Below, in pieces: positions 16,755 to 29,980 of a stretch of DNA of 39,233 bases. The notes under the pieces were generated by a model that was given only the letters and a program-made list of their open reading frames with translations, ran no database searches and had not been told where the DNA came from. Location: the IMG/VR virus record IMGVR_UViG_3300022670_000191, positions 1-39,233 of that record; one strand, 5' to 3'. How positions within the stretch are numbered: position 1 is the first letter of the stretch; each line of letters begins with the position of its first letter. Source of the DNA: a virus (lineage: Duplodnaviria; Caudoviricetes). Position numbers and translations under genes: made by a program.

Positions 16755-17435
16755 CTACTCCAGTGCAATGGGCAAATCATCCTCTTGCAGTATAATACCA
16801 TCATCCTCGGTCAGTATAAATCCGAGTGGATTGGGTGTATCCACTATCTTGATGGTACGACTAGCGCTGGAAAATGTCACTCTCCGCTGTGTTGAAGAGA
16901 ATTTGACCAATCTCGAAACAGAGCTAAAATTCACGACATGAGCTTGTAATATCGGTGCATCTGCTGTCACACCAATCGTCGGTGTTGCGATCAGAGGAGT
17001 GATAGAGGCATTCAGAGCCTCGTCAGGCACCGTGTCAGTAATAACCTCGCCCACAGTAATATCATAATCCGGCGAAGCTACAAGAGTGATCGTCACCACC
17101 GCATCAGAGGTTCTAACTACCGCTGTGACAGGCTGTTTGCCAAGAATCTCTCTATTCCAGCCCTTGTCCTCAGTCTGTGCAGAAACCATGCCATTGAGAA
17201 TAATCTGACGAACCTGATCAAAAGCTGATCCGGCAGCAACCCAGGTATCGTCAGTCAGCGAAATGGTGATGACCTGACCACCGGCAACAAGTAGTGGTTC
17301 GGTAAGGGCTGGTGCGCTTACTGTGGCACTCGGTATCCCCACGAATACAGTAATCTGCTGCACCAATAGAAATGAATTATCTAAATGCTGGTGTGCCCCC
17401 GTAAAGGCTGAGATATGGTTTTTCCACTGGATCAT
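16755..17435 (-). CDS. Putative structural protein (accessory module gene 4)
   Basis: Ig-like beta composition; C-terminal FILTEDDGIILQED; ATGA coupling. Confidence 0.6.
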   Translation of the reverse strand: MIQWKNHISAFTGAHQHLDNSFLLVQQITVFVGIPSATVSAPALTEPLLVAGGQVITISLTDDTWVAAGSAFDQVRQIILNGMVSAQTEDKGWNREILGKQPVTAVVRTSDAVVTITLVASPDYDITVGEVITDTVPDEALNASITPLIATPTIGVTADAPILQAHVVNFSSVSRLVKFSSTQRRVTFSSASRTIKIVDTPNPLGFILTEDDGIILQEDDLPIALE

Positions 17436-18526
17436 CGTGTAACAATTGTCAGGAACGTATCGTCAGCATCTGTGCCACTAAATCTGAATGTGATCGTATC
17501 TGCGTTCATGTCCGCGGCTGTAGCGTCAAATTGGTACATGCCATTGGATATTTCAGCAGCGCTGCCAGTTGCAGCACCAAATGCTGCACCGTCCAGTGAT
17601 CGCTGAACCGTTAGTGTAAGACCAGTCTTTGGCGTTACATGATCTGTGTCATCAACCATCAATACATAGATATTGCTAAAGGCGGCGTTCTTTTCCGGTA
17701 TGACCGTATCGGCCTTTACAGCGGCTATATCGGCTGAGATGTCAGCACCAACAGGGGTGCCAAGCACTGACGCCAATGCAGCGCTATCTGTTCCACGCAT
17801 CGTTGCCGTATCGACGCCATCCGTGCCTCTCATGGTCGCGGTGTCCACACCATCGGTACCGCGCATGGCGGCACCCGCTATACCTGTAACATCGTCACGA
17901 ATAGCACGAATAACTTCAGCCAAAGACACATTATTGGCCGGATCTGCAGCAGCTGGGAAGATCGGTATTCCAGCCGTTCCCTCAAGTGTATTGATCAACT
18001 GTTTGACGTATTGCATCAACGTGTCTGCAGATGTCGGATCACCTGCAGCCGCAGCATCGGCCAAAGCACCCAATACAGACGCGAGAGCCGCTGAGTCAGT
18101 GCCTCTCATATCTGTATTCGTGGTGCAGGTGTCTACAAGCTGAATATCAGTACCCGAAAGATCAACAGCAGTGGTAGGAGCCGTAACATTTGCCCAGTTC
18201 ACTGGAGAACGCTCAATACTGAATTGCGCAACTACCTCGCCAACTACCGAAACACCACCGACCGTACCAACAGAAATAATGGCCGCATATGACTTTCCAG
18301 CCTCATAGCCATTAGCGCCTGTGGCAACAATACGCAGATTATTCAACCCAACGACGCTATCAAAATCCACTGATAGTGTTTCACCGGCTGTTATTTGGGT
18401 TGTCGAATTATCTTCGTAAACCTCAATAACAGGACTTCCGGCCAAGACTGCTGGAATACCAGTAGCAAAAGCTCTGGTTGTAAATTTGAAATCTAGTGTT
18501 TTCCCTACGGGGTAATCAGGCATCAT
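17432..18526 (-). CDS. Putative fibre protein with MRGTD repeats (accessory module gene 3)
   Basis: N- and C-terminal beta domains flank an Ala-rich shaft with four MRGTD repeats. Confidence 0.65.
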   Translation of the reverse strand: MMPDYPVGKTLDFKFTTRAFATGIPAVLAGSPVIEVYEDNSTTQITAGETLSVDFDSVVGLNNLRIVATGANGYEAGKSYAAIISVGTVGGVSVVGEVVAQFSIERSPVNWANVTAPTTAVDLSGTDIQLVDTCTTNTDMRGTDSAALASVLGALADAAAAGDPTSADTLMQYVKQLINTLEGTAGIPIFPAAADPANNVSLAEVIRAIRDDVTGIAGAAMRGTDGVDTATMRGTDGVDTATMRGTDSAALASVLGTPVGADISADIAAVKADTVIPEKNAAFSNIYVLMVDDTDHVTPKTGLTLTVQRSLDGAAFGAATGSAAEISNGMYQFDATAADMNADTITFRFSGTDADDTFLTIVTR

Positions 18527-19974
18527 GCAGCGAGTCCTCCTCCTTGTCCCGCTATACCGCCAGCACCTGCGAGTCCGCCTGATCTTACAAGACTAGACAT
18601 GATCCTTCCACCTGCTACTGCGAATAAACTGGATAGTCGAATAGCAGTGAACGCACCATTCTGGCAAACCAGCGTGCCTGTCGTTTGGCTGAAAGTACTA
18701 TCATTCCAAACGTGTATGTCATCTTCAGCGCTCAATCCTGTTAACAATGTACCGCACATAATAGCGCCGTGGTCTGCTGTTTGGGTAGAGCGGTGATAAG
18801 TGGTTGCCCCTGCGGTTTCGTCATTGGTCGTATTCACTCGAAATTGCATGCTCGGAACTGCACGTGCTGCGGTTAAGCCAGCATCTGCTGTAACGGCTTG
18901 GTTCGCCATGACAATATAATCGTCAGCATTATCAACTTCTATGTTTGAATTTCCTGTCGTGTGCGTAAAAGCGGCCGTATCGATATGTGGGTTGGTATCC
19001 CACGCGAATACTGCGGCTGTCGATTCATTGAACAATCCAGTGGTTGCCTCAACTGTACAAGATTCAGTTCCACTGGGTAACTCAATCAGTGTAAGAGCAG
19101 CTTCCCAGTCATCACCTCCTAACTCCCTTGATACAATTTCAAAAATCAGGTCATCACCGGAACTGGGATAGATAATACACATCCCCGACATGGCGGCTTT
19201 GTTTAAGTCATCAGAATTTCTCGGACCGTACACTTGATTCCAGGAGCCTGGAACAATTGTGCCTGCGTTAAGGTTTAACCGTATCTGGCTTTCAGCTCGG
19301 TTTGCCGTGTTCTGTGTAGTTAGCCTGGCCGTAAAAAGGACCAGTACAGCGTTCGTTGTGGCTATGTCCACACTATTGGTAGAACGTGTAAAAGGAGAGT
19401 CTTCTTCGGCGGTCGTTTGGATATTGAGTGTTGTGGCAGCGTTATCCGTAACGCTTGCAGTGACAGAGGCCGATGACGTATAGCGTCCATAGCCAAATGT
19501 ATCATCGAGCTTAATGATCGTAACACCAGAACGAGTAGCCGCAATCCTCAAAGGAAGTGGAGACGCTACAGTATTGTCATCACGGATATGATGAATAAAG
19601 AATTCATCTCCATTGCCAGTCGTTGTTGTGACGCTGACAACTGCAAAACCCTGCACAATATATTCTTCAGTGAGTCCGTTTTGGCGTGAGTGTCCAGTAC
19701 AACTACCGGCAATAATATCGGAACCTGCAAAAGTAATCCGAGATTCCCACCCAATACGACTACCATCATCTGGGTCAGTACATCGTATAGCGTCTGACCA
19801 CATAATCAGGAAATGGCCTGTTTCCCCAAGCGTAAACGTACCTGCGCTATGCGTAATACCAGAACCCTGATTAGCAACAGCAGTGTCCCAGATCAAAGTC
19901 AGATCACCACTGGTGTTAGCAATCGTATCGACATTAGCGTTGTTTCGCCGTACTACAAAATCACCAGCAGCCAT
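18523..19974 (-). CDS. Protein with three tandem C1q/BclA-like domains (accessory module gene 2)
   Basis: Three repeats of a WDT/IQT...(F/I)T(H/R)...I...(F/Y)(L/I)(I/V) pattern; Gly-rich C-terminal tail. Confidence 0.6.
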   Translation of the reverse strand: MAAGDFVVRRNNANVDTIANTSGDLTLIWDTAVANQGSGITHSAGTFTLGETGHFLIMWSDAIRCTDPDDGSRIGWESRITFAGSDIIAGSCTGHSRQNGLTEEYIVQGFAVVSVTTTTGNGDEFFIHHIRDDNTVASPLPLRIAATRSGVTIIKLDDTFGYGRYTSSASVTASVTDNAATTLNIQTTAEEDSPFTRSTNSVDIATTNAVLVLFTARLTTQNTANRAESQIRLNLNAGTIVPGSWNQVYGPRNSDDLNKAAMSGMCIIYPSSGDDLIFEIVSRELGGDDWEAALTLIELPSGTESCTVEATTGLFNESTAAVFAWDTNPHIDTAAFTHTTGNSNIEVDNADDYIVMANQAVTADAGLTAARAVPSMQFRVNTTNDETAGATTYHRSTQTADHGAIMCGTLLTGLSAEDDIHVWNDSTFSQTTGTLVCQNGAFTAIRLSSLFAVAGGRIMSSLVRSGGLAGAGGIAGQGGGLAA

Positions 19975-21356
19975 TAGTCATTACGACCCGTAACAATATT
20001 ACGATACTTAAACGCCTCATAGATTGAATACATATTCTGATTCTTAGTCTTTTGTTTGAACGAGTCTTTGTATCGAAGCACAGCACCGTAGAATAAATTA
20101 TCCCCATATTCAATCATCTTATTGTCATTTGTTATTGAGGCCAGCCACCAATAGTTAATGACGTTCATCATTTGGATATTATCGGCTTTGTAAGCATTGG
20201 TACTTCTGTAGTAAGCAACATTGTTCTGCACCATAGGATCGCCAAGCAACCTGTCTCCACCAGACCCAGGACCACCACCATCATTAGCGGTATGTGTTCT
20301 TGTGACCCGACAATACTCTGACGATTTGGGATAGGGGTCTGTGTCTAAGCCATCGGCTACAAGCCAATTCAAAACATCCTCACAAGCTGCGATTGAATCT
20401 GTCCACGTATTTGTGATAAAACTAGTTGAACCGTATTCTCCATTTAGGACTTGTGCAGGGAAAAATTGTTCTGGGTTTTCTCCATTTTCAATAAACCATT
20501 CTCTACACACTCGTATAGCATCTATCGTCAGAGCGATCATAAACGGAGCTGTATCGTCATCCGATTTATTCGGTGTGTCTTGGTTCAGAAATTCATTGCG
20601 CCAACGATAAAGATGATTGATCATCATCTCATAAACGAACGGAATGGTTTCATTGCCCTGTTGTGGGTCTTTATATCGTCCTAGCCCCTGCATCTCGTAG
20701 TAAACAAGAGCTTTTGCCAGTAGTGCTGCAGGACGAGATCGAGAGGTATAGCGTCCATGATACTGGTGAGTCGTATCCTCAGCAGACCCCATCTTGTATT
20801 CATTTAGCCTGGAGAATGAGAAATTACCCTCGACATGCCCGATAATGTCTTGTTCTGTGGCTTCTCCTCTCTGTACGGCGTGATAGACAGCGTCAGCAGC
20901 TCTGTGCCACGCAGATGATGGTCCAACACCCCAACGGCTCAGTTGTACTTGTAGAGCCTTAGAACGTCCAGCACTGAGATCATCGACTGTATTGCCTGTT
21001 CTTATTGCCCACTCAGTGTGTTGCAGTAAATTATCATAAGCTGAATAAAAGACTGTTCTAGGACCGTTTTCTTTGTATTCGTCAGCTTCCCAGTCATTTC
21101 CACCAGCAGCGAAGTTGTCAGCAGAGGCTTTTGCCATCTGCGTCCAGTTGGGGACGAAATCAGCATAGCCTGGCGGTGCCTCTGGAGGTTGTAAAATAAG
21201 CGCTACATCAACCTCCCGGTCTGGACACTTGATTCTATAGGTTCCGGTACCGTCCTCGGTTATAGCCTCGTAACATTCATCTCTTGAGGTATGTTGAGAT
21301 AGGAATGAGCCATCAGGACGTATAGCGCGATAATAGCCCTTGCGAGTGATCTTCAT
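19974..21356 (-). CDS. Hypothetical 460-aa protein, possible alpha-helical carbohydrate-active enzyme (accessory module gene 1)
   Basis: Short N-domain, PPEAPPG linker, aromatic-rich helical body; SD GAGG; function is inference only. Confidence 0.5.
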   Translation of the reverse strand: MKITRKGYYRAIRPDGSFLSQHTSRDECYEAITEDGTGTYRIKCPDREVDVALILQPPEAPPGYADFVPNWTQMAKASADNFAAGGNDWEADEYKENGPRTVFYSAYDNLLQHTEWAIRTGNTVDDLSAGRSKALQVQLSRWGVGPSSAWHRAADAVYHAVQRGEATEQDIIGHVEGNFSFSRLNEYKMGSAEDTTHQYHGRYTSRSRPAALLAKALVYYEMQGLGRYKDPQQGNETIPFVYEMMINHLYRWRNEFLNQDTPNKSDDDTAPFMIALTIDAIRVCREWFIENGENPEQFFPAQVLNGEYGSTSFITNTWTDSIAACEDVLNWLVADGLDTDPYPKSSEYCRVTRTHTANDGGGPGSGGDRLLGDPMVQNNVAYYRSTNAYKADNIQMMNVINYWWLASITNDNKMIEYGDNLFYGAVLRYKDSFKQKTKNQNMYSIYEAFKYRNIVTGRND

Positions 21357-25100: not shown

Positions 25101-25314
25101 CTGATTCCATTATTTTATACGCTACGTAATGCAATACTCCGACCGTCCATATGCGTGAATCAATCTCAGTTGTCCACCACTCCAAATGACGTTCGCCATT
25201 TTCTTTTCGATAAGATCGAAGCACACACAATTCTTCGGTGTCATCACGATCATTAAGGCTTTCTAAGATACTCTCTACAGTTGCCGCCCGACCAATCTTA
25301 ATGACATTATTCAT
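25090..25314 (-). CDS. Hypothetical protein
   Basis: ORF track; coupled. Confidence 0.5.
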   Translation of the reverse strand: MNNVIKIGRAATVESILESLNDRDDTEELCVLRSYRKENGERHLEWWTTEIDSRIWTVGVLHYVAYKIMESDDD

Positions 25315-25643
25315 GATCGTCTGTCCAATCCTCTGTTAGTGGCTTCCTCGGATCTCCAAACATCGAATTCAGCAAAGGATAGTTTCATAAATGTCTCGGC
25401 TGTTTTCCAGTCACAATAGGCATTAGCTTTATCTTCTACCCCTTGCTTATATTCTGGCCGTCTTTTAACCCACGCATCAATAGCAGGAACCGTTGTCAGT
25501 GACGTTGGAGCCAAGTCCCTTAGTTGGGCATAGATTATCTTCAATCGTTCGTCAGAAGTCTCCTTAGCGCCGTAACAGCGACCGTATGAGCCACTATCGA
25601 CACGTTCTCGTATTCGGTCAAGGGTCTTTCGAATATCGCTCAT
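25311..25643 (-). CDS. Helical protein, possibly UvsY-like recombination mediator
   Basis: PEY...DVWRSEEATNR C-terminal pattern. Confidence 0.4.
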   Translation of the reverse strand: MSDIRKTLDRIRERVDSGSYGRCYGAKETSDERLKIIYAQLRDLAPTSLTTVPAIDAWVKRRPEYKQGVEDKANAYCDWKTAETFMKLSFAEFDVWRSEEATNRGLDRRS

Positions 25644-25645
25644 AA

Positions 25646-25807
25646 CTATTTCCGACAGGCTTTCAATAAGTCAAGTTTCGATATGCCAAATGCCTCTGCT
25701 GCCTCCCATATGTCTTTGTGTGATTGATCAGACATTTCTGCATTAACTGCCAATGCCATAAGTAGATTAAGAAGCTTTGTTACAGCTAATTTTTGTTCTT
25801 CGGTCAT
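25646..25807 (-). CDS. 53-aa hypothetical protein
   Basis: Manual translation MTEEQKLAVTK...ACRK; ATGA overlap. Confidence 0.5.
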   Translation of the reverse strand: MTEEQKLAVTKLLNLLMALAVNAEMSDQSHKDIWEAAEAFGISKLDLLKACRK

Positions 25808-26061
25808 ACCCTCATCTCGTGTTGTGGTTCTATTCTCTGCGGCTCACAATACCGAATGATTCGCCACTTTCTTCCTCCTGGTCTTTTCCCGTGTACAGGA
25901 GTATGTGTAAACGTCCACCTGACGCCCGCATCGTCGCCCTGTGACCGCAATTCACCTATTCTGCTGGATAGCTCGAATATATACATATTGGCTGCTGTAG
26001 CACGTGTAATGCCGCCGAATTTGAGGATGTGATCAAGAATCTCTTGACGCTGAGTTTTCAT
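25804..26061 (-). CDS. Winged helix-turn-helix DNA-binding protein (HTH_39-like)
   Basis: MKTQRQEILDHI...GGIT...LSSRIGELRSQG; SD AAGGAG. Confidence 0.75.
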   Translation of the reverse strand: MKTQRQEILDHILKFGGITRATAANMYIFELSSRIGELRSQGDDAGVRWTFTHTPVHGKRPGGRKWRIIRYCEPQRIEPQHEMRV

Positions 26062-26248
26062 TATCGTTCTCCTTGGCCATGCGCATCGCATCTTCAAAGG
26101 ACATTTGTTCACGATAAGCATAAGGCTCTATCAATATTTCGACAATCCTTCTCAATTGCAGGTTCTGAAAATCAAGTCCTTGTATTCGATTTTGGTCTTC
26201 CCTACGATCCATCAAACAATACTTATTCTCACAAGGTCCGTCGTTCAT
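26033..26248 (-). CDS. Hypothetical protein
   Basis: ORF track; coupled. Confidence 0.45.
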   Translation of the reverse strand: MNDGPCENKYCLMDRREDQNRIQGLDFQNLQLRRIVEILIEPYAYREQMSFEDAMRMAKENDNENSASRDS

Positions 26249-27124: not shown

Positions 27125-27556
27125 TTATAAACCAGCAGCTTTAGCGTCTGCTACTATTTTCATCTCTGCCTCACGCATTGCAGCAAGCTCTGTGTTGATG
27201 CGCCTCATCTCTCTGGTACCCCTTGGACCTATGCGTGTTCTGTGTACTTTTATTTCTAGGCCATCAGGTAAAAATTTAGGCCACTGACTAAGCGACCTGA
27301 AAACCTTTGAGGTAAACCACTCACCGGCTAATCGTTCTTTCTTAAATCGTGTATGGAATTTAGCCTCACAGTGAGCAGCCTGGAACTCACTCATTGGACC
27401 TATCGTTATGGCAACCTCTAAAACCTTTGGATTACCAGTCTGTAATTCAGATAGTCGTTTCTGAGGATTGCGAGCAATACCAATCTTTACACACGAATCA
27501 CCTTTAACTTTCTGATGATATGTCTCAACTATGAAATATATGTACTTAGTAGCCAT
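27125..27556 (-). CDS. GIY-YIG superfamily nuclease (T5orf172/MUG113-like)
   Basis: YIYFI...VKIGIARNPQKRLSELQTGNP...EAKFHTRF...GEWF. Confidence 0.85.
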   Translation of the reverse strand: MATKYIYFIVETYHQKVKGDSCVKIGIARNPQKRLSELQTGNPKVLEVAITIGPMSEFQAAHCEAKFHTRFKKERLAGEWFTSKVFRSLSQWPKFLPDGLEIKVHRTRIGPRGTREMRRINTELAAMREAEMKIVADAKAAGL

Positions 27557-27569
27557 ATGACCCTTTATG

Positions 27570-28045
27570 TTGTATCCGGGTAAGCGAGACCCTGACGATT
27601 AAGTCATTTCATCTCGCTTAACTCCTGACCCTTTAGAGGTTTGTAGAGCCGTTATCAGCGCCCTGCTGCTTACCTTCTGACCACATGATCCCGCAGGGTA
27701 CGACCCGGAATGTGGCTGATACGGTGAGTGAGGAACGTTGTCACCCCGATACTCGTTCGATAAGCGTCCCAGACTATTCGACAACGCCCCTCTGGGATAG
27801 AGCTCTACTAGTACAGGCTTGTTTAGTCCTGCAGCTTGCCTTATTAAACGCTTATACCTAAAACACCGACTATATGAATCAGCATTAGAGGTGGCCCGAC
27901 CATTCACTACAGCCTCGCGTGGTCGGCGTGTATCGCTTGGGGTCTCAGGTCCCCGGACTGTTCCTCGGATGCCGGCATTCAAGAAGGCACCACCACCACT
28001 AATACTGACTCTATCGACGTTAATTCGCCGCTGGTTGCGGCTAGG
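27570..28045 (-). ncRNA. Candidate large structured non-coding RNA / structured origin element (boundaries approximate)
   Basis: More than ten nested inverted repeats, a possible pseudoknot and an end-to-end helix; several stems close only with G-U pairs on the minus strand. Confidence 0.6.
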
Positions 28046-28046
28046 G

Positions 28047-28077
28047 TTGATTTCTTGGGCGAGGTTTGGTGTATAAT
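28047..28077 (+). promoter_or_regulatory. Antisense promoter (TTGATT-N19-TATAAT)
   Basis: Perfect TATAAT at 28072-28077; -35-like box at a long 19-nt spacing. Confidence 0.45.
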
Positions 28078-28083
28078 GACATC

Positions 28084-28150
28084 GGCCCTGGAATCTCTCG
28101 AAACAGCTTTCCAGAAAAGGCTCAGCATTATCTAAGGTGCTGGGCCTTTT
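28084..28150 (+). ncRNA. Candidate ~67-nt antisense RNA (OOP/RNA I-like)
   Basis: Lies between the TATAAT box and an intrinsic terminator; contains hairpin CTGGAA 28088-28093 / TTCCAG 28109-28114. Confidence 0.5.
28115..28150 (+). terminator. Intrinsic terminator, possibly bidirectional
   Basis: AAAAGGCTCAGCATT-ATCTAA-GGTGCTGGGCCTTTT; three U-G pairs favour the plus strand. Confidence 0.7.
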
Positions 28151-28298
28151 GAATAATGAGTATGCGCTATTCATCAAAACAATTCCACCCACTGCATAAG
28201 GTTGCTCCACATATATCCTGCTGGATGTGCCAGTATCAAATGAGCCATGTATAAGACTCCAAAAAACCATGCCCAATATTTATATGTAGAACGCTTAA

Positions 28299-28604
28299 TC
28301 ATGAGTATTCATTTAAGGCCCACTTATTCCAATCAAACCCGCATTGACACTTTCCGTCGGTCGCGTAACCTGCATCAAGGCCGCATTCTGGTGTTGGACA
28401 TATCGGCAAACTAACAACCACCTTCGCCCCGTAAGGAAACGTAGATGCCGCCAATTCAAGTTCTTCAAGTCCATCCTCACCCTGCTTGTCCCCGTCGCAA
28501 TAACAACTCCAAGCAGCCTTTAGTCGGTCACAATTGGGACCGTCGTAACAATCCGGCTTCTGCATAGCCCACATGGTTTCACGATATTGAAGTCGCTCAT
28601 TCAT
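28299..28604 (-). CDS. Cys-rich hypothetical protein
   Basis: CPTPECG...CQCGFDW; SD GGAGG. Confidence 0.6.
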   Translation of the reverse strand: MNERLQYRETMWAMQKPDCYDGPNCDRLKAAWSCYCDGDKQGEDGLEELELAASTFPYGAKVVVSLPICPTPECGLDAGYATDGKCQCGFDWNKWALNEYS

Positions 28605-28837
28605 TATCTGTCCTCCTCTTGTATGCGCTCATTAGGATTCCACTTTTTGCTTTCGTTCTTGCAGTTTGAGCATTCTCCTGATTCGCCAATTTCTTCTAAC
28701 AGCCTCGATGCTAAGGGCGCGCCACCCATTGCTGTGTTCAAGCTCTGCAAGCCTTGGAAGTGTTTCTCGCACGCCTTCACTTCCTGACCCGGCCAAAACA
28801 CTACATACTTTGCTGGAAATTCTGTTTGTTCACTCAT
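28604..28837 (-). CDS. Small Zn-binding hypothetical protein
   Basis: FWPG...ACEKH...CSNC. Confidence 0.6.
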   Translation of the reverse strand: MSEQTEFPAKYVVFWPGQEVKACEKHFQGLQSLNTAMGGAPLASRLLEEIGESGECSNCKNESKKWNPNERIQEEDR

Positions 28838-29006
28838 TATCAGCGTCCCTGGATAGGTGTTCTTCTGTTAAGTCCTGCCACCGCTTTTTGAGGGCATGGC
28901 CACGAAATGTTTTATGCAGTGGATCACGCTGACCTGGATCACGATAATCAATTCCCTGAGCCAAAGTTACAGTGGGTTCGTGTATGCCTGTTTTAGGGTC
29001 AGTCAT
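28830..29006 (-). CDS. 58-aa hypothetical protein
   Basis: Manual translation MTDPKTGIHEP...; overlaps both neighbours. Confidence 0.45.
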   Translation of the reverse strand: MTDPKTGIHEPTVTLAQGIDYRDPGQRDPLHKTFRGHALKKRWQDLTEEHLSRDADNE

Positions 29007-29263
29007 GGCCTACCTGCCAGTCCACACCAACCATGTCCAGGCTCTGCTTCGGTTACGATTGTGCCACCTGCAGTTACTGATGTGTGTGATGTGCGCCATG
29101 CCATACATTGAGAGCCTATGCAATGAGCGTTTGTTCTGCTTGTTGCACCATGATTTTCTTTGCTCCAAACTTCTGGACTACGGTTAGTAGAATTGGCACC
29201 GTCATCGCCATTGTAATAGCGAACCATTGGACACCAGCGTAATTTTGCCTCATCCTCTGTCAT
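29003..29263 (-). CDS. Cys-motif phage hypothetical protein
   Basis: MTEDEAKLRWCP...CIGSQCMAWR...GWCGLAG. Confidence 0.65.
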   Translation of the reverse strand: MTEDEAKLRWCPMVRYYNGDDGANSTNRSPEVWSKENHGATSRTNAHCIGSQCMAWRTSHTSVTAGGTIVTEAEPGHGWCGLAGRP

Positions 29264-29574
29264 GATAAAGCTTCGGTGCAAGCTTCTATGATTGCGCGAG
29301 GGAGTGATTCGTCTGTTCCATACTTTGATTCAAGCGACTTATCTAATTCGCCTGTTTCAGCATAGAATTTAACAATCCATTTCTTTGTGCCGGGCACTTT
29401 TGACCAATCGCCCCATCGTGCCTTCTCCATCAGCGCCATTGCTACTCGTGGGTCACGCACGAACTTGTCAGGGCTAACTGAGTGTGGTCCGTCAAAGTAA
29501 TAGCTCCCGCCTTTAGGGTTGGCCTGACCAACACCCAAAGCCACAACTGCATTTGCTAATTCTTTGTCGTTCAT
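29260..29574 (-). CDS. Phage ABA-sandwich-like protein
   Basis: MNDKELANAVV...DPRVAMALMEK...SLPRAIIEAC. Confidence 0.6.
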   Translation of the reverse strand: MNDKELANAVVALGVGQANPKGGSYYFDGPHSVSPDKFVRDPRVAMALMEKARWGDWSKVPGTKKWIVKFYAETGELDKSLESKYGTDESLPRAIIEACTEALS

Positions 29575-29653
29575 CCGTATACCATTATCATCGCTATTGC
29601 GACTCCTGCAGCGATACAAATAATGACGTACCAGAACAGGCGGGATGTGTATT

Positions 29654-29980
29654 TCATTGGAGTACCTTCAGTGCTGCTCTGGCGTAATTGCCAACACGAT
29701 ACATCGGAAAACTATTTCTAGGATCACCGCCCTGTTCTTCTATCAGTGTAAGCATCGCAATAGCGTATGCCTCACTATCGATATCACTATCGATACGAAG
29801 CCACACCAACACCGCATAGTCATCGTCAGCGTTTGTGAATGGGTCTGGAACCACCTTCCCAGATAGCCCTCTTTCGTTTGGAGGAATGCCAAAGTCTTTT
29901 CCAGTAATATCTCCAACATAGAAACCACCCCACCCCATAGCCTTACAAAGACGAATCCTATCTTCTGTATTATTGGACAT
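29654..29980 (-). CDS. Phage ABA-sandwich-like protein
   Basis: DRIRLCKAMGW...PDPFTNADD...ARAALKV. Confidence 0.55.
   Translation of the reverse strand: MSNNTEDRIRLCKAMGWGGFYVGDITGKDFGIPPNERGLSGKVVPDPFTNADDDYAVLVWLRIDSDIDSEAYAIAMLTLIEEQGGDPRNSFPMYRVGNYARAALKVLQ

What the first reader, a model, noticed from the sequence alone, without database searches (positions are those of the whole stretch)
27570..28045. Large, densely base-paired RNA-like element in the slot where lambdoid phages encode replication proteins O/P
Seen (plus-strand coordinates): nested stems GAGGAAC 27730-36/GTTCCTC 27960-66, CGATAC 27747-52/GTATCG 27930-35, ATAAGCGT 27760-67/ACGCTTAT 27848-55, CCCAGA 27768-73/TCTGGG 27791-96 and CCGACCA 27896-902/TGGTCGG 27920-26. 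Also hairpins at 27812-33, 27856-92, 27939-54 and 27968-91. A second domain has TATCAGC 27653-59/GCTGATA 27715-21 and CCACAT 27681-86/ATGTGG 27710-15, and there is a terminal stem 27581-89/27612-20. Several hairpins (27856-92, 27812-33, 27968-91) close only through G-U pairs on the minus strand, which suggests a folded single strand in the operon direction. Knowledge: in lambdoid genomes the interval between cro and the nin-type genes (here DUF551, VRR-NUC, DUF1364) holds the replication genes, and ColE1 replicates from a folded ~550-nt RNA primer without its own initiator protein. Inference: this is an undescribed large ncRNA, possibly an RNA primer/origin replacing O/P.
Basis: partly seen in the sequence, partly recalled or inferred. 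Interest (0 to 1): 0.9.

Follow-up and report, generated by a model that had tools for sequence, protein, structure and literature searches.

The report
Swappable RNA cassette array in phage
Where related viruses keep their DNA-replication genes, this marine-sediment phage has a chain of folded RNA modules whose inserts are swapped between relatives, headed by a predicted sense/antisense RNA pair, and it likely starts or controls DNA copying with RNA instead of a protein.

Summary
It spans 27557-28190 on the minus strand and has three parts: a fixed head (S), optional stem-loop cassettes that each hold a variable cargo RNA, and a tail (T).

Seven DNA copies and 73 related shadow ORFs show the arms covarying (36 of 37 slot-A cases, shuffle mean 19). 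They also show about 83 different cargos among 99, the same cargo in different slots, and one empty S+T form. A reading frame stays open through every cassette, but its product does not look like a protein (AlphaFold pTM 0.15).

S holds a predicted sense promoter and a predicted antisense RNA of about 70 nt with covarying hairpins, the layout of ColE1 RNA II/RNA I, with no sequence similarity to ColE1. The complete genome has no recognisable initiator, helicase, primase or integrase.

Best reading: an antisense-controlled RNA primer/origin that carries accessory RNA cassettes (0.45). No Rfam, phage or plasmid match was found. Expression and function are untested.

The parts
28174..28302 (-). 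42-aa upstream ORF; its stop overlaps the start of the array ORF
   Evidence: translation; no Pfam hit
28159..28187 (-). predicted sigma70-type sense promoter (-35 at 28182-28187, -10 at 28159-28164); start near 28152, downstream of the ATG
   Evidence: -10 at +11 with a 17-nt spacer in 6 of 7 arrays (own scoring); weak in this copy and not called by the standard scan
28028..28174 (-). head module S, present in all 7 DNA arrays
28072..28077 (+). -10 box (perfect consensus) of the predicted antisense promoter
   Evidence: the -35 spacer is 19 nt in 5 of 7 best calls, which is atypical
28084..28152 (+). predicted antisense RNA of about 70 nt: hairpin 28088-28114, then long hairpin 28115-28150 with a U-rich tail
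   Evidence: 6 loci aligned: 20 pairs, 10 with changes on both sides, covariation term -4.6; S folds better antisense in 4 of 4 loci
27599..28174 (-). 191-codon open frame over the array; likely translated, product likely without function
   Evidence: open in 1 of 2000 shuffles; pTM 0.15; composition like random codons
27866..28027 (-). cassette A: long carrier stem enclosing a variable cargo (about 27890-27998)
   Evidence: z -3.4 sense versus -1.3 antisense; 6 joints in 3 other samples skip 94-120 nt here
27755..27865 (-). cassette G: second, optional module
   Evidence: shared with P0003 and P0059, absent from the other 6 DNA arrays; weak fold, z -0.5
27557..27754 (-). tail module T1 (one of several alternative tails); ends at the ribosome-binding site of the next gene; candidate origin end
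   Evidence: shared with P0002, P0004, P0011, P0013; z -2.4; other sediment contigs cover it
27125..27556 (-). GIY-YIG-type (T5orf172/MUG113) endonuclease gene directly downstream; also downstream in G002

Best explanation
This is a modular non-coding RNA locus, with a fixed head, swappable stem-loop cassettes and a tail inside one open reading frame, that likely serves as an antisense-controlled RNA primer for phage DNA replication in the manner of ColE1.

Shown: the modular anatomy, arm covariation, cargo exchange between slots, the open frame, and the absence of a recognisable initiator.

Inferred: (1) A promoter overlapping the ORF start makes an untranslated RNA of 300-850 nt, about 600 nt here. 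(2) That RNA folds and its tail forms an RNA-DNA hybrid that host enzymes extend. (3) The antisense RNA of about 70 nt binds the RNA's 5' end and sets copy number or superinfection specificity. (4) The longer operon mRNA from the cro side is translated through the locus, which avoids polarity on downstream genes and explains why cassettes keep the frame. (5) Cassettes are accessory. Each folds on its own, so it can ride in the RNA without disturbing head or tail, may be cut out by a double-strand RNase, and is exchanged by recombination at short shared arm ends.
For: The window is a complete genome (direct terminal repeats). It has no initiator, helicase, primase, polymerase or integrase hit, and neither do G001 and complete G007. 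One of the two cultured portal relatives I read, PspP-H6/1, has an initiator plus DnaB in this slot; G023 (39% portal identity) has DnaB and no array. Five close relatives by portal (77-78% identity) carry the element in the slot. S and T are always present while cassettes number 0 to 3, and G006 has none, so the core function is not cargo delivery. The sense promoter sits at the same offset although the -35 lies in different upstream genes. The antisense RNA ends where the sense RNA starts and has two hairpins, as reported for ColE1-type replicons of Vibrionales and Pasteurellales (PMC8683028 passages). Downstream genes differ between relatives, so there is no fixed regulatory target.
Against: There are no RNA data and no functional test. 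The arrays show no sequence similarity to the ColE1 origin (12-197 of 200 shuffles score as well) and no GC-skew inflection. The standard promoter/terminator scan finds nothing in the window, and my promoter score is ad hoc: this copy scores 13, which 16% of random windows reach. G012 has the array plus a stand-alone initiator C-terminal domain. Vibrio phage 234P9 also has no annotated initiator and no array, so a missing annotation is weak evidence. An unrecognised small initiator (for example the winged-helix gene 25804-26121) cannot be excluded. Several unrelated tails exist, which is odd for an origin. The G-rich 3' ends can simply be ribosome-binding sites.
Confidence: 0.45

Rival explanations
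1. An antisense-controlled expression switch. The small RNA controls translation or termination of the array ORF, and so the downstream operon, like P4 CI or Gifsy-1 IsrK/orf45, standing in for the missing CI/N/Q proteins.
For: The frame is kept open and starts by overlap with the upstream stop. In 3 of 6 complete arrays (G001, G002, G006) it runs to the next start. The T2 tail can pair over the next ribosome-binding site. No CI, N or Q hit in the window. Precedent for a nucleotide-conserved coupling ORF: PMC4825925 passages.
Against: In the other 3 of 6 (window, G007, G012) the frame stops inside the tail. Downstream genes are not conserved. The antisense RNA covers about +23 to +90 of the ORF, not its start site. 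A U-tail after the hairpin on the sense strand appears in only 2 of 7 arrays (read). It does not explain how the phage replicates.
Confidence: 0.25
2. A polycistronic small-RNA factory. The main purpose is to express captured structured RNAs (tRNA-like and others), released from the carrier stems, as decoys or regulators against the host.
For: About 83 cargo clusters among 99. Long carrier stems fold on the sense strand. Cargos compatible with a tRNA T-loop: 15 of 98 versus 4.8 expected, or 11 after removing 4 false ones that the DNA of G001/G002 shows are the inner closing helix. A dedicated promoter is predicted.
Against: The empty form G006 keeps S, T, both promoters and the frame. No cargo with DNA in hand matches Rfam or ARAGORN. 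The T-loop evidence rests on back-inference from amino acids.
Confidence: 0.2
3. Single-stranded DNA hairpin cassettes moved by a site-specific recombinase, in the manner of integron attC sites, or acting as priming signals.
For: Modules join at a recurrent CGG, and G012 has two tandem D cassettes. G-T pairs are also tolerated in single-stranded DNA.
Against: No tyrosine recombinase in 5 of 5 genomes searched. Slot order is mostly fixed. The cargo sits inside the stem, not between stems. Head and cassettes favour opposite strands, as two RNAs would.
Confidence: 0.07
4. An ordinary but divergent protein gene, for example an unrecognised initiator.
For: Open frame of 106-279 codons in all 7 arrays; 73 called relatives.
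Against: No family hit. No invariant column. pTM 0.15 and no residue at pLDDT 70 or more (shallow alignment). Composition correlates 0.94 with codon counts, against 0.63 for real genes. Residue changes follow base pairing.
Confidence: 0.03

Closest known systems
ColE1-type replicon, RNA II pre-primer with RNA I (PMC8683028, passages read; record NC_001371 region read)
   Same: Predicted long folded sense RNA with a short antisense RNA over its 5' end; two hairpins, as in Vibrionales and Pasteurellales variants; no initiator protein.
   Different: No sequence similarity; lies in a tailed phage operon; overlaid by an open frame; carries exchangeable cassettes and alternative tails.
RNA-based prophage origins of cluster A mycobacteriophages (PMC7157519, passages read)
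   Same: A phage without repA that has a non-coding RNA needed for replication.
   Different: Those lie beside parABS and serve only the prophage state; deletion leaves lytic growth normal. No cassette array appears in the passages read, and no parAB was seen here.
Gifsy-1 IsrK/orf45/anrP and P4 CI RNA (PMC4825925, passages read)
   Same: A structured phage RNA overlaid by an ORF conserved in nucleotides rather than amino acids.
   Different: The regulator there is sense-encoded, the target gene is fixed, and there are no cassettes.
Integron cassette arrays, T4-type PeSL cassettes, GOLLD RNAs with embedded tRNAs (recalled, from no call)
   Same: Variable modules exchanged within a conserved frame.
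   Different: Here the cargo is RNA held inside a slot-specific stem, the reading frame is preserved, and no integrase is present. Rfam gave no hit.

Membership tests
ColE1-type replicon | Sequence homology to RNA I / RNA II | tested here: not met
   No Rfam hit; no plasmid hit; alignment no better than shuffles
ColE1-type replicon | Two overlapping convergent RNAs, the short one complementary to the 5' end of the long one | tested here: inconclusive
   Predicted from promoter motifs and covariation; standard scan negative; no RNA data
ColE1-type replicon | Antisense RNA of about 100 nt with 2-3 stem-loops | tested here: met
   About 70-90 nt; two hairpins in 6 arrays and three in G012; by prediction
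ColE1-type replicon | No initiator protein needed | tested here: inconclusive
   None found in the window, G001 or G007; headless initiator domain in G012
ColE1-type replicon | RNA-DNA hybrid, RNase H cut and Pol I extension at a fixed origin | not testable with these tools
   Needs an experiment
P4 CI / C4 / IsrK-type switch | Rfam C4-type RNA | tested here: not met
   No hit
P4 CI / C4 / IsrK-type switch | ORF coupled to a conserved downstream antirepressor or replication gene | tested here: not met
   Downstream genes vary; the frame stops inside the tail in 3 of 6
Integron | Tyrosine integrase beside the array | tested here: not met
   0 of 5 genomes
Group I/II intron or other catalogued large RNA | Covariance-model match | tested here: not met
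   0 hits at gathering over the window; only weak chance-level hits by E-value

The most novel reading that the evidence does not exclude
A family of tailed phages has replaced its replication proteins with an antisense-controlled primer RNA. The same RNA doubles as a programmable cassette array that captures and reshuffles small structured RNAs inside frame-preserving stems, an RNA counterpart of an integron.
Probability: 0.35. Interest if true: 0.95.

Novelty: categorically new. Interest (0 to 1): 0.82.

Why it matters
The anatomy alone is surprising: dozens of different folded RNAs are exchanged among ordered stem slots, and all keep a reading frame whose product looks meaningless. It offers a natural library of about 80 uncharacterised small RNAs and a natural RNA display scaffold. 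If the head and tail form a primer, this would be a tailed phage that relies on RNA priming with no initiator of its own, whereas the published phage case concerns only the prophage state. The empty form of about 320 nt makes that directly testable as a minireplicon. It also shows that gene callers hide such RNAs as hypothetical proteins.

Tried and rejected
Rfam: no credible hit for the window, L001/L002, L003 or five cut-out arrays. ARAGORN: 0 genes in 5 sources.

Sequence searches: blastn and tblastn against cultured phages gave only one 25-nt chance match. Plasmids gave none. GTDB genomes gave no confirmed locus for the array or the portal, so the host is unknown. The pattern searches (0 hits; 5 chance hits, L006-L010, dropped) led nowhere.

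Folding in fixed 150-nt tiles cut the modules and showed no signal at the element. Sequencing runs: no RNA holder listed.

The profile search missed the arrays of G007 and G012, which tblastn found, so negatives from that search are weak. In one search the G007 frame was mis-indexed; its 157-aa length comes.

A direct count of G-U versus A-C pairs in the carrier arms and a second read-laying on further samples were not obtained. Strand asymmetry therefore rests, and cargo exchange in other samples rests.

I considered a likeness of the tails' G-rich ends to the ColE1 origin and set it aside. Hammerhead-like and RNase P-like guesses for some cargos came from amino acids only and were not tested.

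Nine literature searches showed no description of such an array in their listings. The library lacks most subscription papers, and no supplements were read.

Full report
Setting. The window is a complete genome of 39,233 bases with direct terminal repeats. It is a P22-type podophage: portal, scaffold, coat, head-closure and ejection genes. The best-holding sequencing run is a marine sediment sample that may be its source. PHROG scans of 74 ORFs found a cro-like gene, an SSB, HNH and GIY-YIG nucleases, but no initiator, helicase, primase, polymerase, CI or Q. Six-frame searches for two initiator families and the tyrosine integrase were also empty. PspP-H6/1, a cultured portal relative (35%), has an initiator and DnaB between its cro-like and nin-type genes.

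Checking the observation. The 8 stems are exact complements and the minus strand folds better than shuffles. Only 3 of 8 are probable in the full ensemble, and 2 more form within module G alone. The two outer stems link a variable cargo to the tail and are probably chance. Rfam has no match.

An open frame covers the element. It has no family hit, yet three searches returned 73 relatives besides the window's own ORF; those listed with cluster sizes are all singletons. They share short paired blocks around variable inserts. The grammar is a head S, optional carriers in a mostly fixed order (E, B, A, C or G, D, F) and one of several tails. The 5' and 3' residues flanking the cargo can be encoded by reverse-complementary codons in 36 of 37 slot-A cases (shuffle mean 19, maximum 28) and in 71 of 84 over four slots (mean 50, maximum 59). 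P0046 and P0074 were left out of this count, and slot D was left out because its parsing was unreliable. Two common classes dominate and may be one old event, but rarer pairs (T/S, S/R, L/Q) add further ones. The inner closing helix also covaries: 40, 15 and 8 cases fall on three matched classes. The 99 cargos form 83 clusters, and 5 of 17 significant pairs lie in different slots (null maximum 38, threshold 45). The product does not behave as a protein: pTM 0.15, and composition correlates 0.94 with codon counts versus 0.63 for real genes.

DNA evidence. Seven arrays were read: the window, G001, G002, G006, G007, G012 and L003. Carrier modules fold on the operon strand: A gives z -3.4 to -7.1 sense versus -1.3 to -4.7 antisense, B -3.8 and D -6.3. 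G, C2 and two tails score near 0. The four A modules are 162, 207, 192 and 153 nt, all multiples of three. G006 has S joined directly to a tail, and G012 has two D cassettes in tandem. In three other sediment runs, contigs pile on the arms and on the tail, almost none cover the cargo, and 6 joints skip 94-120 nt across it. Loose ends show other modules joined at the same junctions (these contigs were laid at 80% likeness, so they are relatives, not variants of this phage). The frame is open for 106-279 codons, against 0-17 of 2000 shuffles, in the six arrays scored; G007 has 157. Three arrays were found by DNA pattern and three by portal, so for these the open frame is not a search artefact, whereas for the protein set it is selected. 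In 3 of 6 complete arrays the frame stops inside the tail.

The head. On the opposite strand each S has a -10 box 99-129 nt from the start, followed by two hairpins (three in G012), the last long and, in the six arrays aligned, followed by a U-rich tail. Across those 6 loci, 10 of 20 pairs change on both sides, and S folds better antisense in 4 of 4 loci. On the sense strand a -10 lies at +11 with a 17-nt spacer in 6 of 7 arrays, with a TTG-type -35 in 5 of 7, located in different upstream genes. The sense start would fall where the antisense RNA ends. This is the ColE1 layout (PMC8683028 passages), without sequence similarity. Cautions: the scoring is my own, this window's sense promoter is weak, the antisense spacer is often 19 nt, the standard scan finds neither promoter, and the loci are related.

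Exclusivity. Of 29 portal relatives, 16 are 63-92% identical. Five of these carry the array (G001, G002, G006, G007, G012). The other 11 are 6-24 kb fragments with no hit. Of these I read the ORF lists of three: G003 and G016 appear to stop short of the slot, and G015 begins there with an O-like C-terminal domain. DnaB was found in 1 of 29, the distant G023, which has no array. Against strict exclusivity, G012 has the array and a 132-codon stand-alone initiator C-terminal domain, and Vibrio phage 234P9 has neither an array nor an annotated initiator. ColE1 origins also co-occur with rep genes in Aeromonadales (PMC8683028).

Mechanism. Because S and T persist without cargo and no downstream gene is fixed, I favour a primer/origin role for the core (0.45). 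In that reading the cassettes are accessory riders, and the open frame is the means by which ribosomes carry the operon mRNA through the structure. An antisense expression switch (0.25) and a small-RNA factory (0.2) remain, and the latter can coexist with the primer model. Some cargos look tRNA-like (15 of 98 versus 4.8; 11 after removing a false class), but none with DNA in hand matched Rfam or ARAGORN. Exchange by recombination at short shared arm ends is inference.

Comparison. It probably works like ColE1 but is not a member. RNA-based prophage origins are known in mycobacteriophages, for the prophage state only (PMC7157519 passages). A nucleotide-conserved coupling ORF is known in Gifsy-1 (PMC4825925 passages). 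Nine literature searches listed nothing on a frame-preserving, cargo-swapping RNA array; supplements were not seen. Earlier notes of this scan describe antisense-controlled RNAs in initiator slots of other phages. They are unchecked leads, and two sequence look-ups found no look-alike.

Verdict. The feature is real and apparently undescribed (about 0.9 for the anatomy). Its function is unproven. Interest 0.82.

Noticed in passing
window 28590-28620, 28800-28870, 28970-29006: Short gene-boundary sequences recur in G002 and L003 around different genes, and other sediment contigs pile up at 28798-28871. They are likely recombination linkers for gene shuffling.
   Followed up: partly
P0036, P0037, P0046, P0051, P0053: Long inserts that read by eye like HNH endonuclease genes in another frame, nested in the array while the array frame stays open.
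   Followed up: no
L058:19202-19600 (G012) and L060:107-529 (G015): Stand-alone C-terminal domains of O-like initiators without the DNA-binding half. They could load a helicase at an RNA-made origin.
   Followed up: partly
window 25804-26121 and 25311-25643: A small winged-helix-like gene followed by a 110-aa gene recurs downstream of the array in G001 and G006. It is the best candidate for an unrecognised replication helper.
   Followed up: partly
window whole genome: No CI, N, Q or integrase hit despite a lambdoid layout with divergent early operons.
   Followed up: partly
window 16755-21356: Four large ORFs without a family hit lie between the early region and the terminase; relatives have different large genes there.
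   Followed up: no
L047 (Vibrio phage 234P9) 28844-30244: A cultured P22-like phage with no annotated initiator; the 286-aa hypothetical at 29082-29942 may be one.
   Followed up: no
L002:6225-6365 and equivalents (tail T2): A C-rich loop can pair with the G-run before the next start codon, forming a possible pseudoknot or switch.
   Followed up: partly
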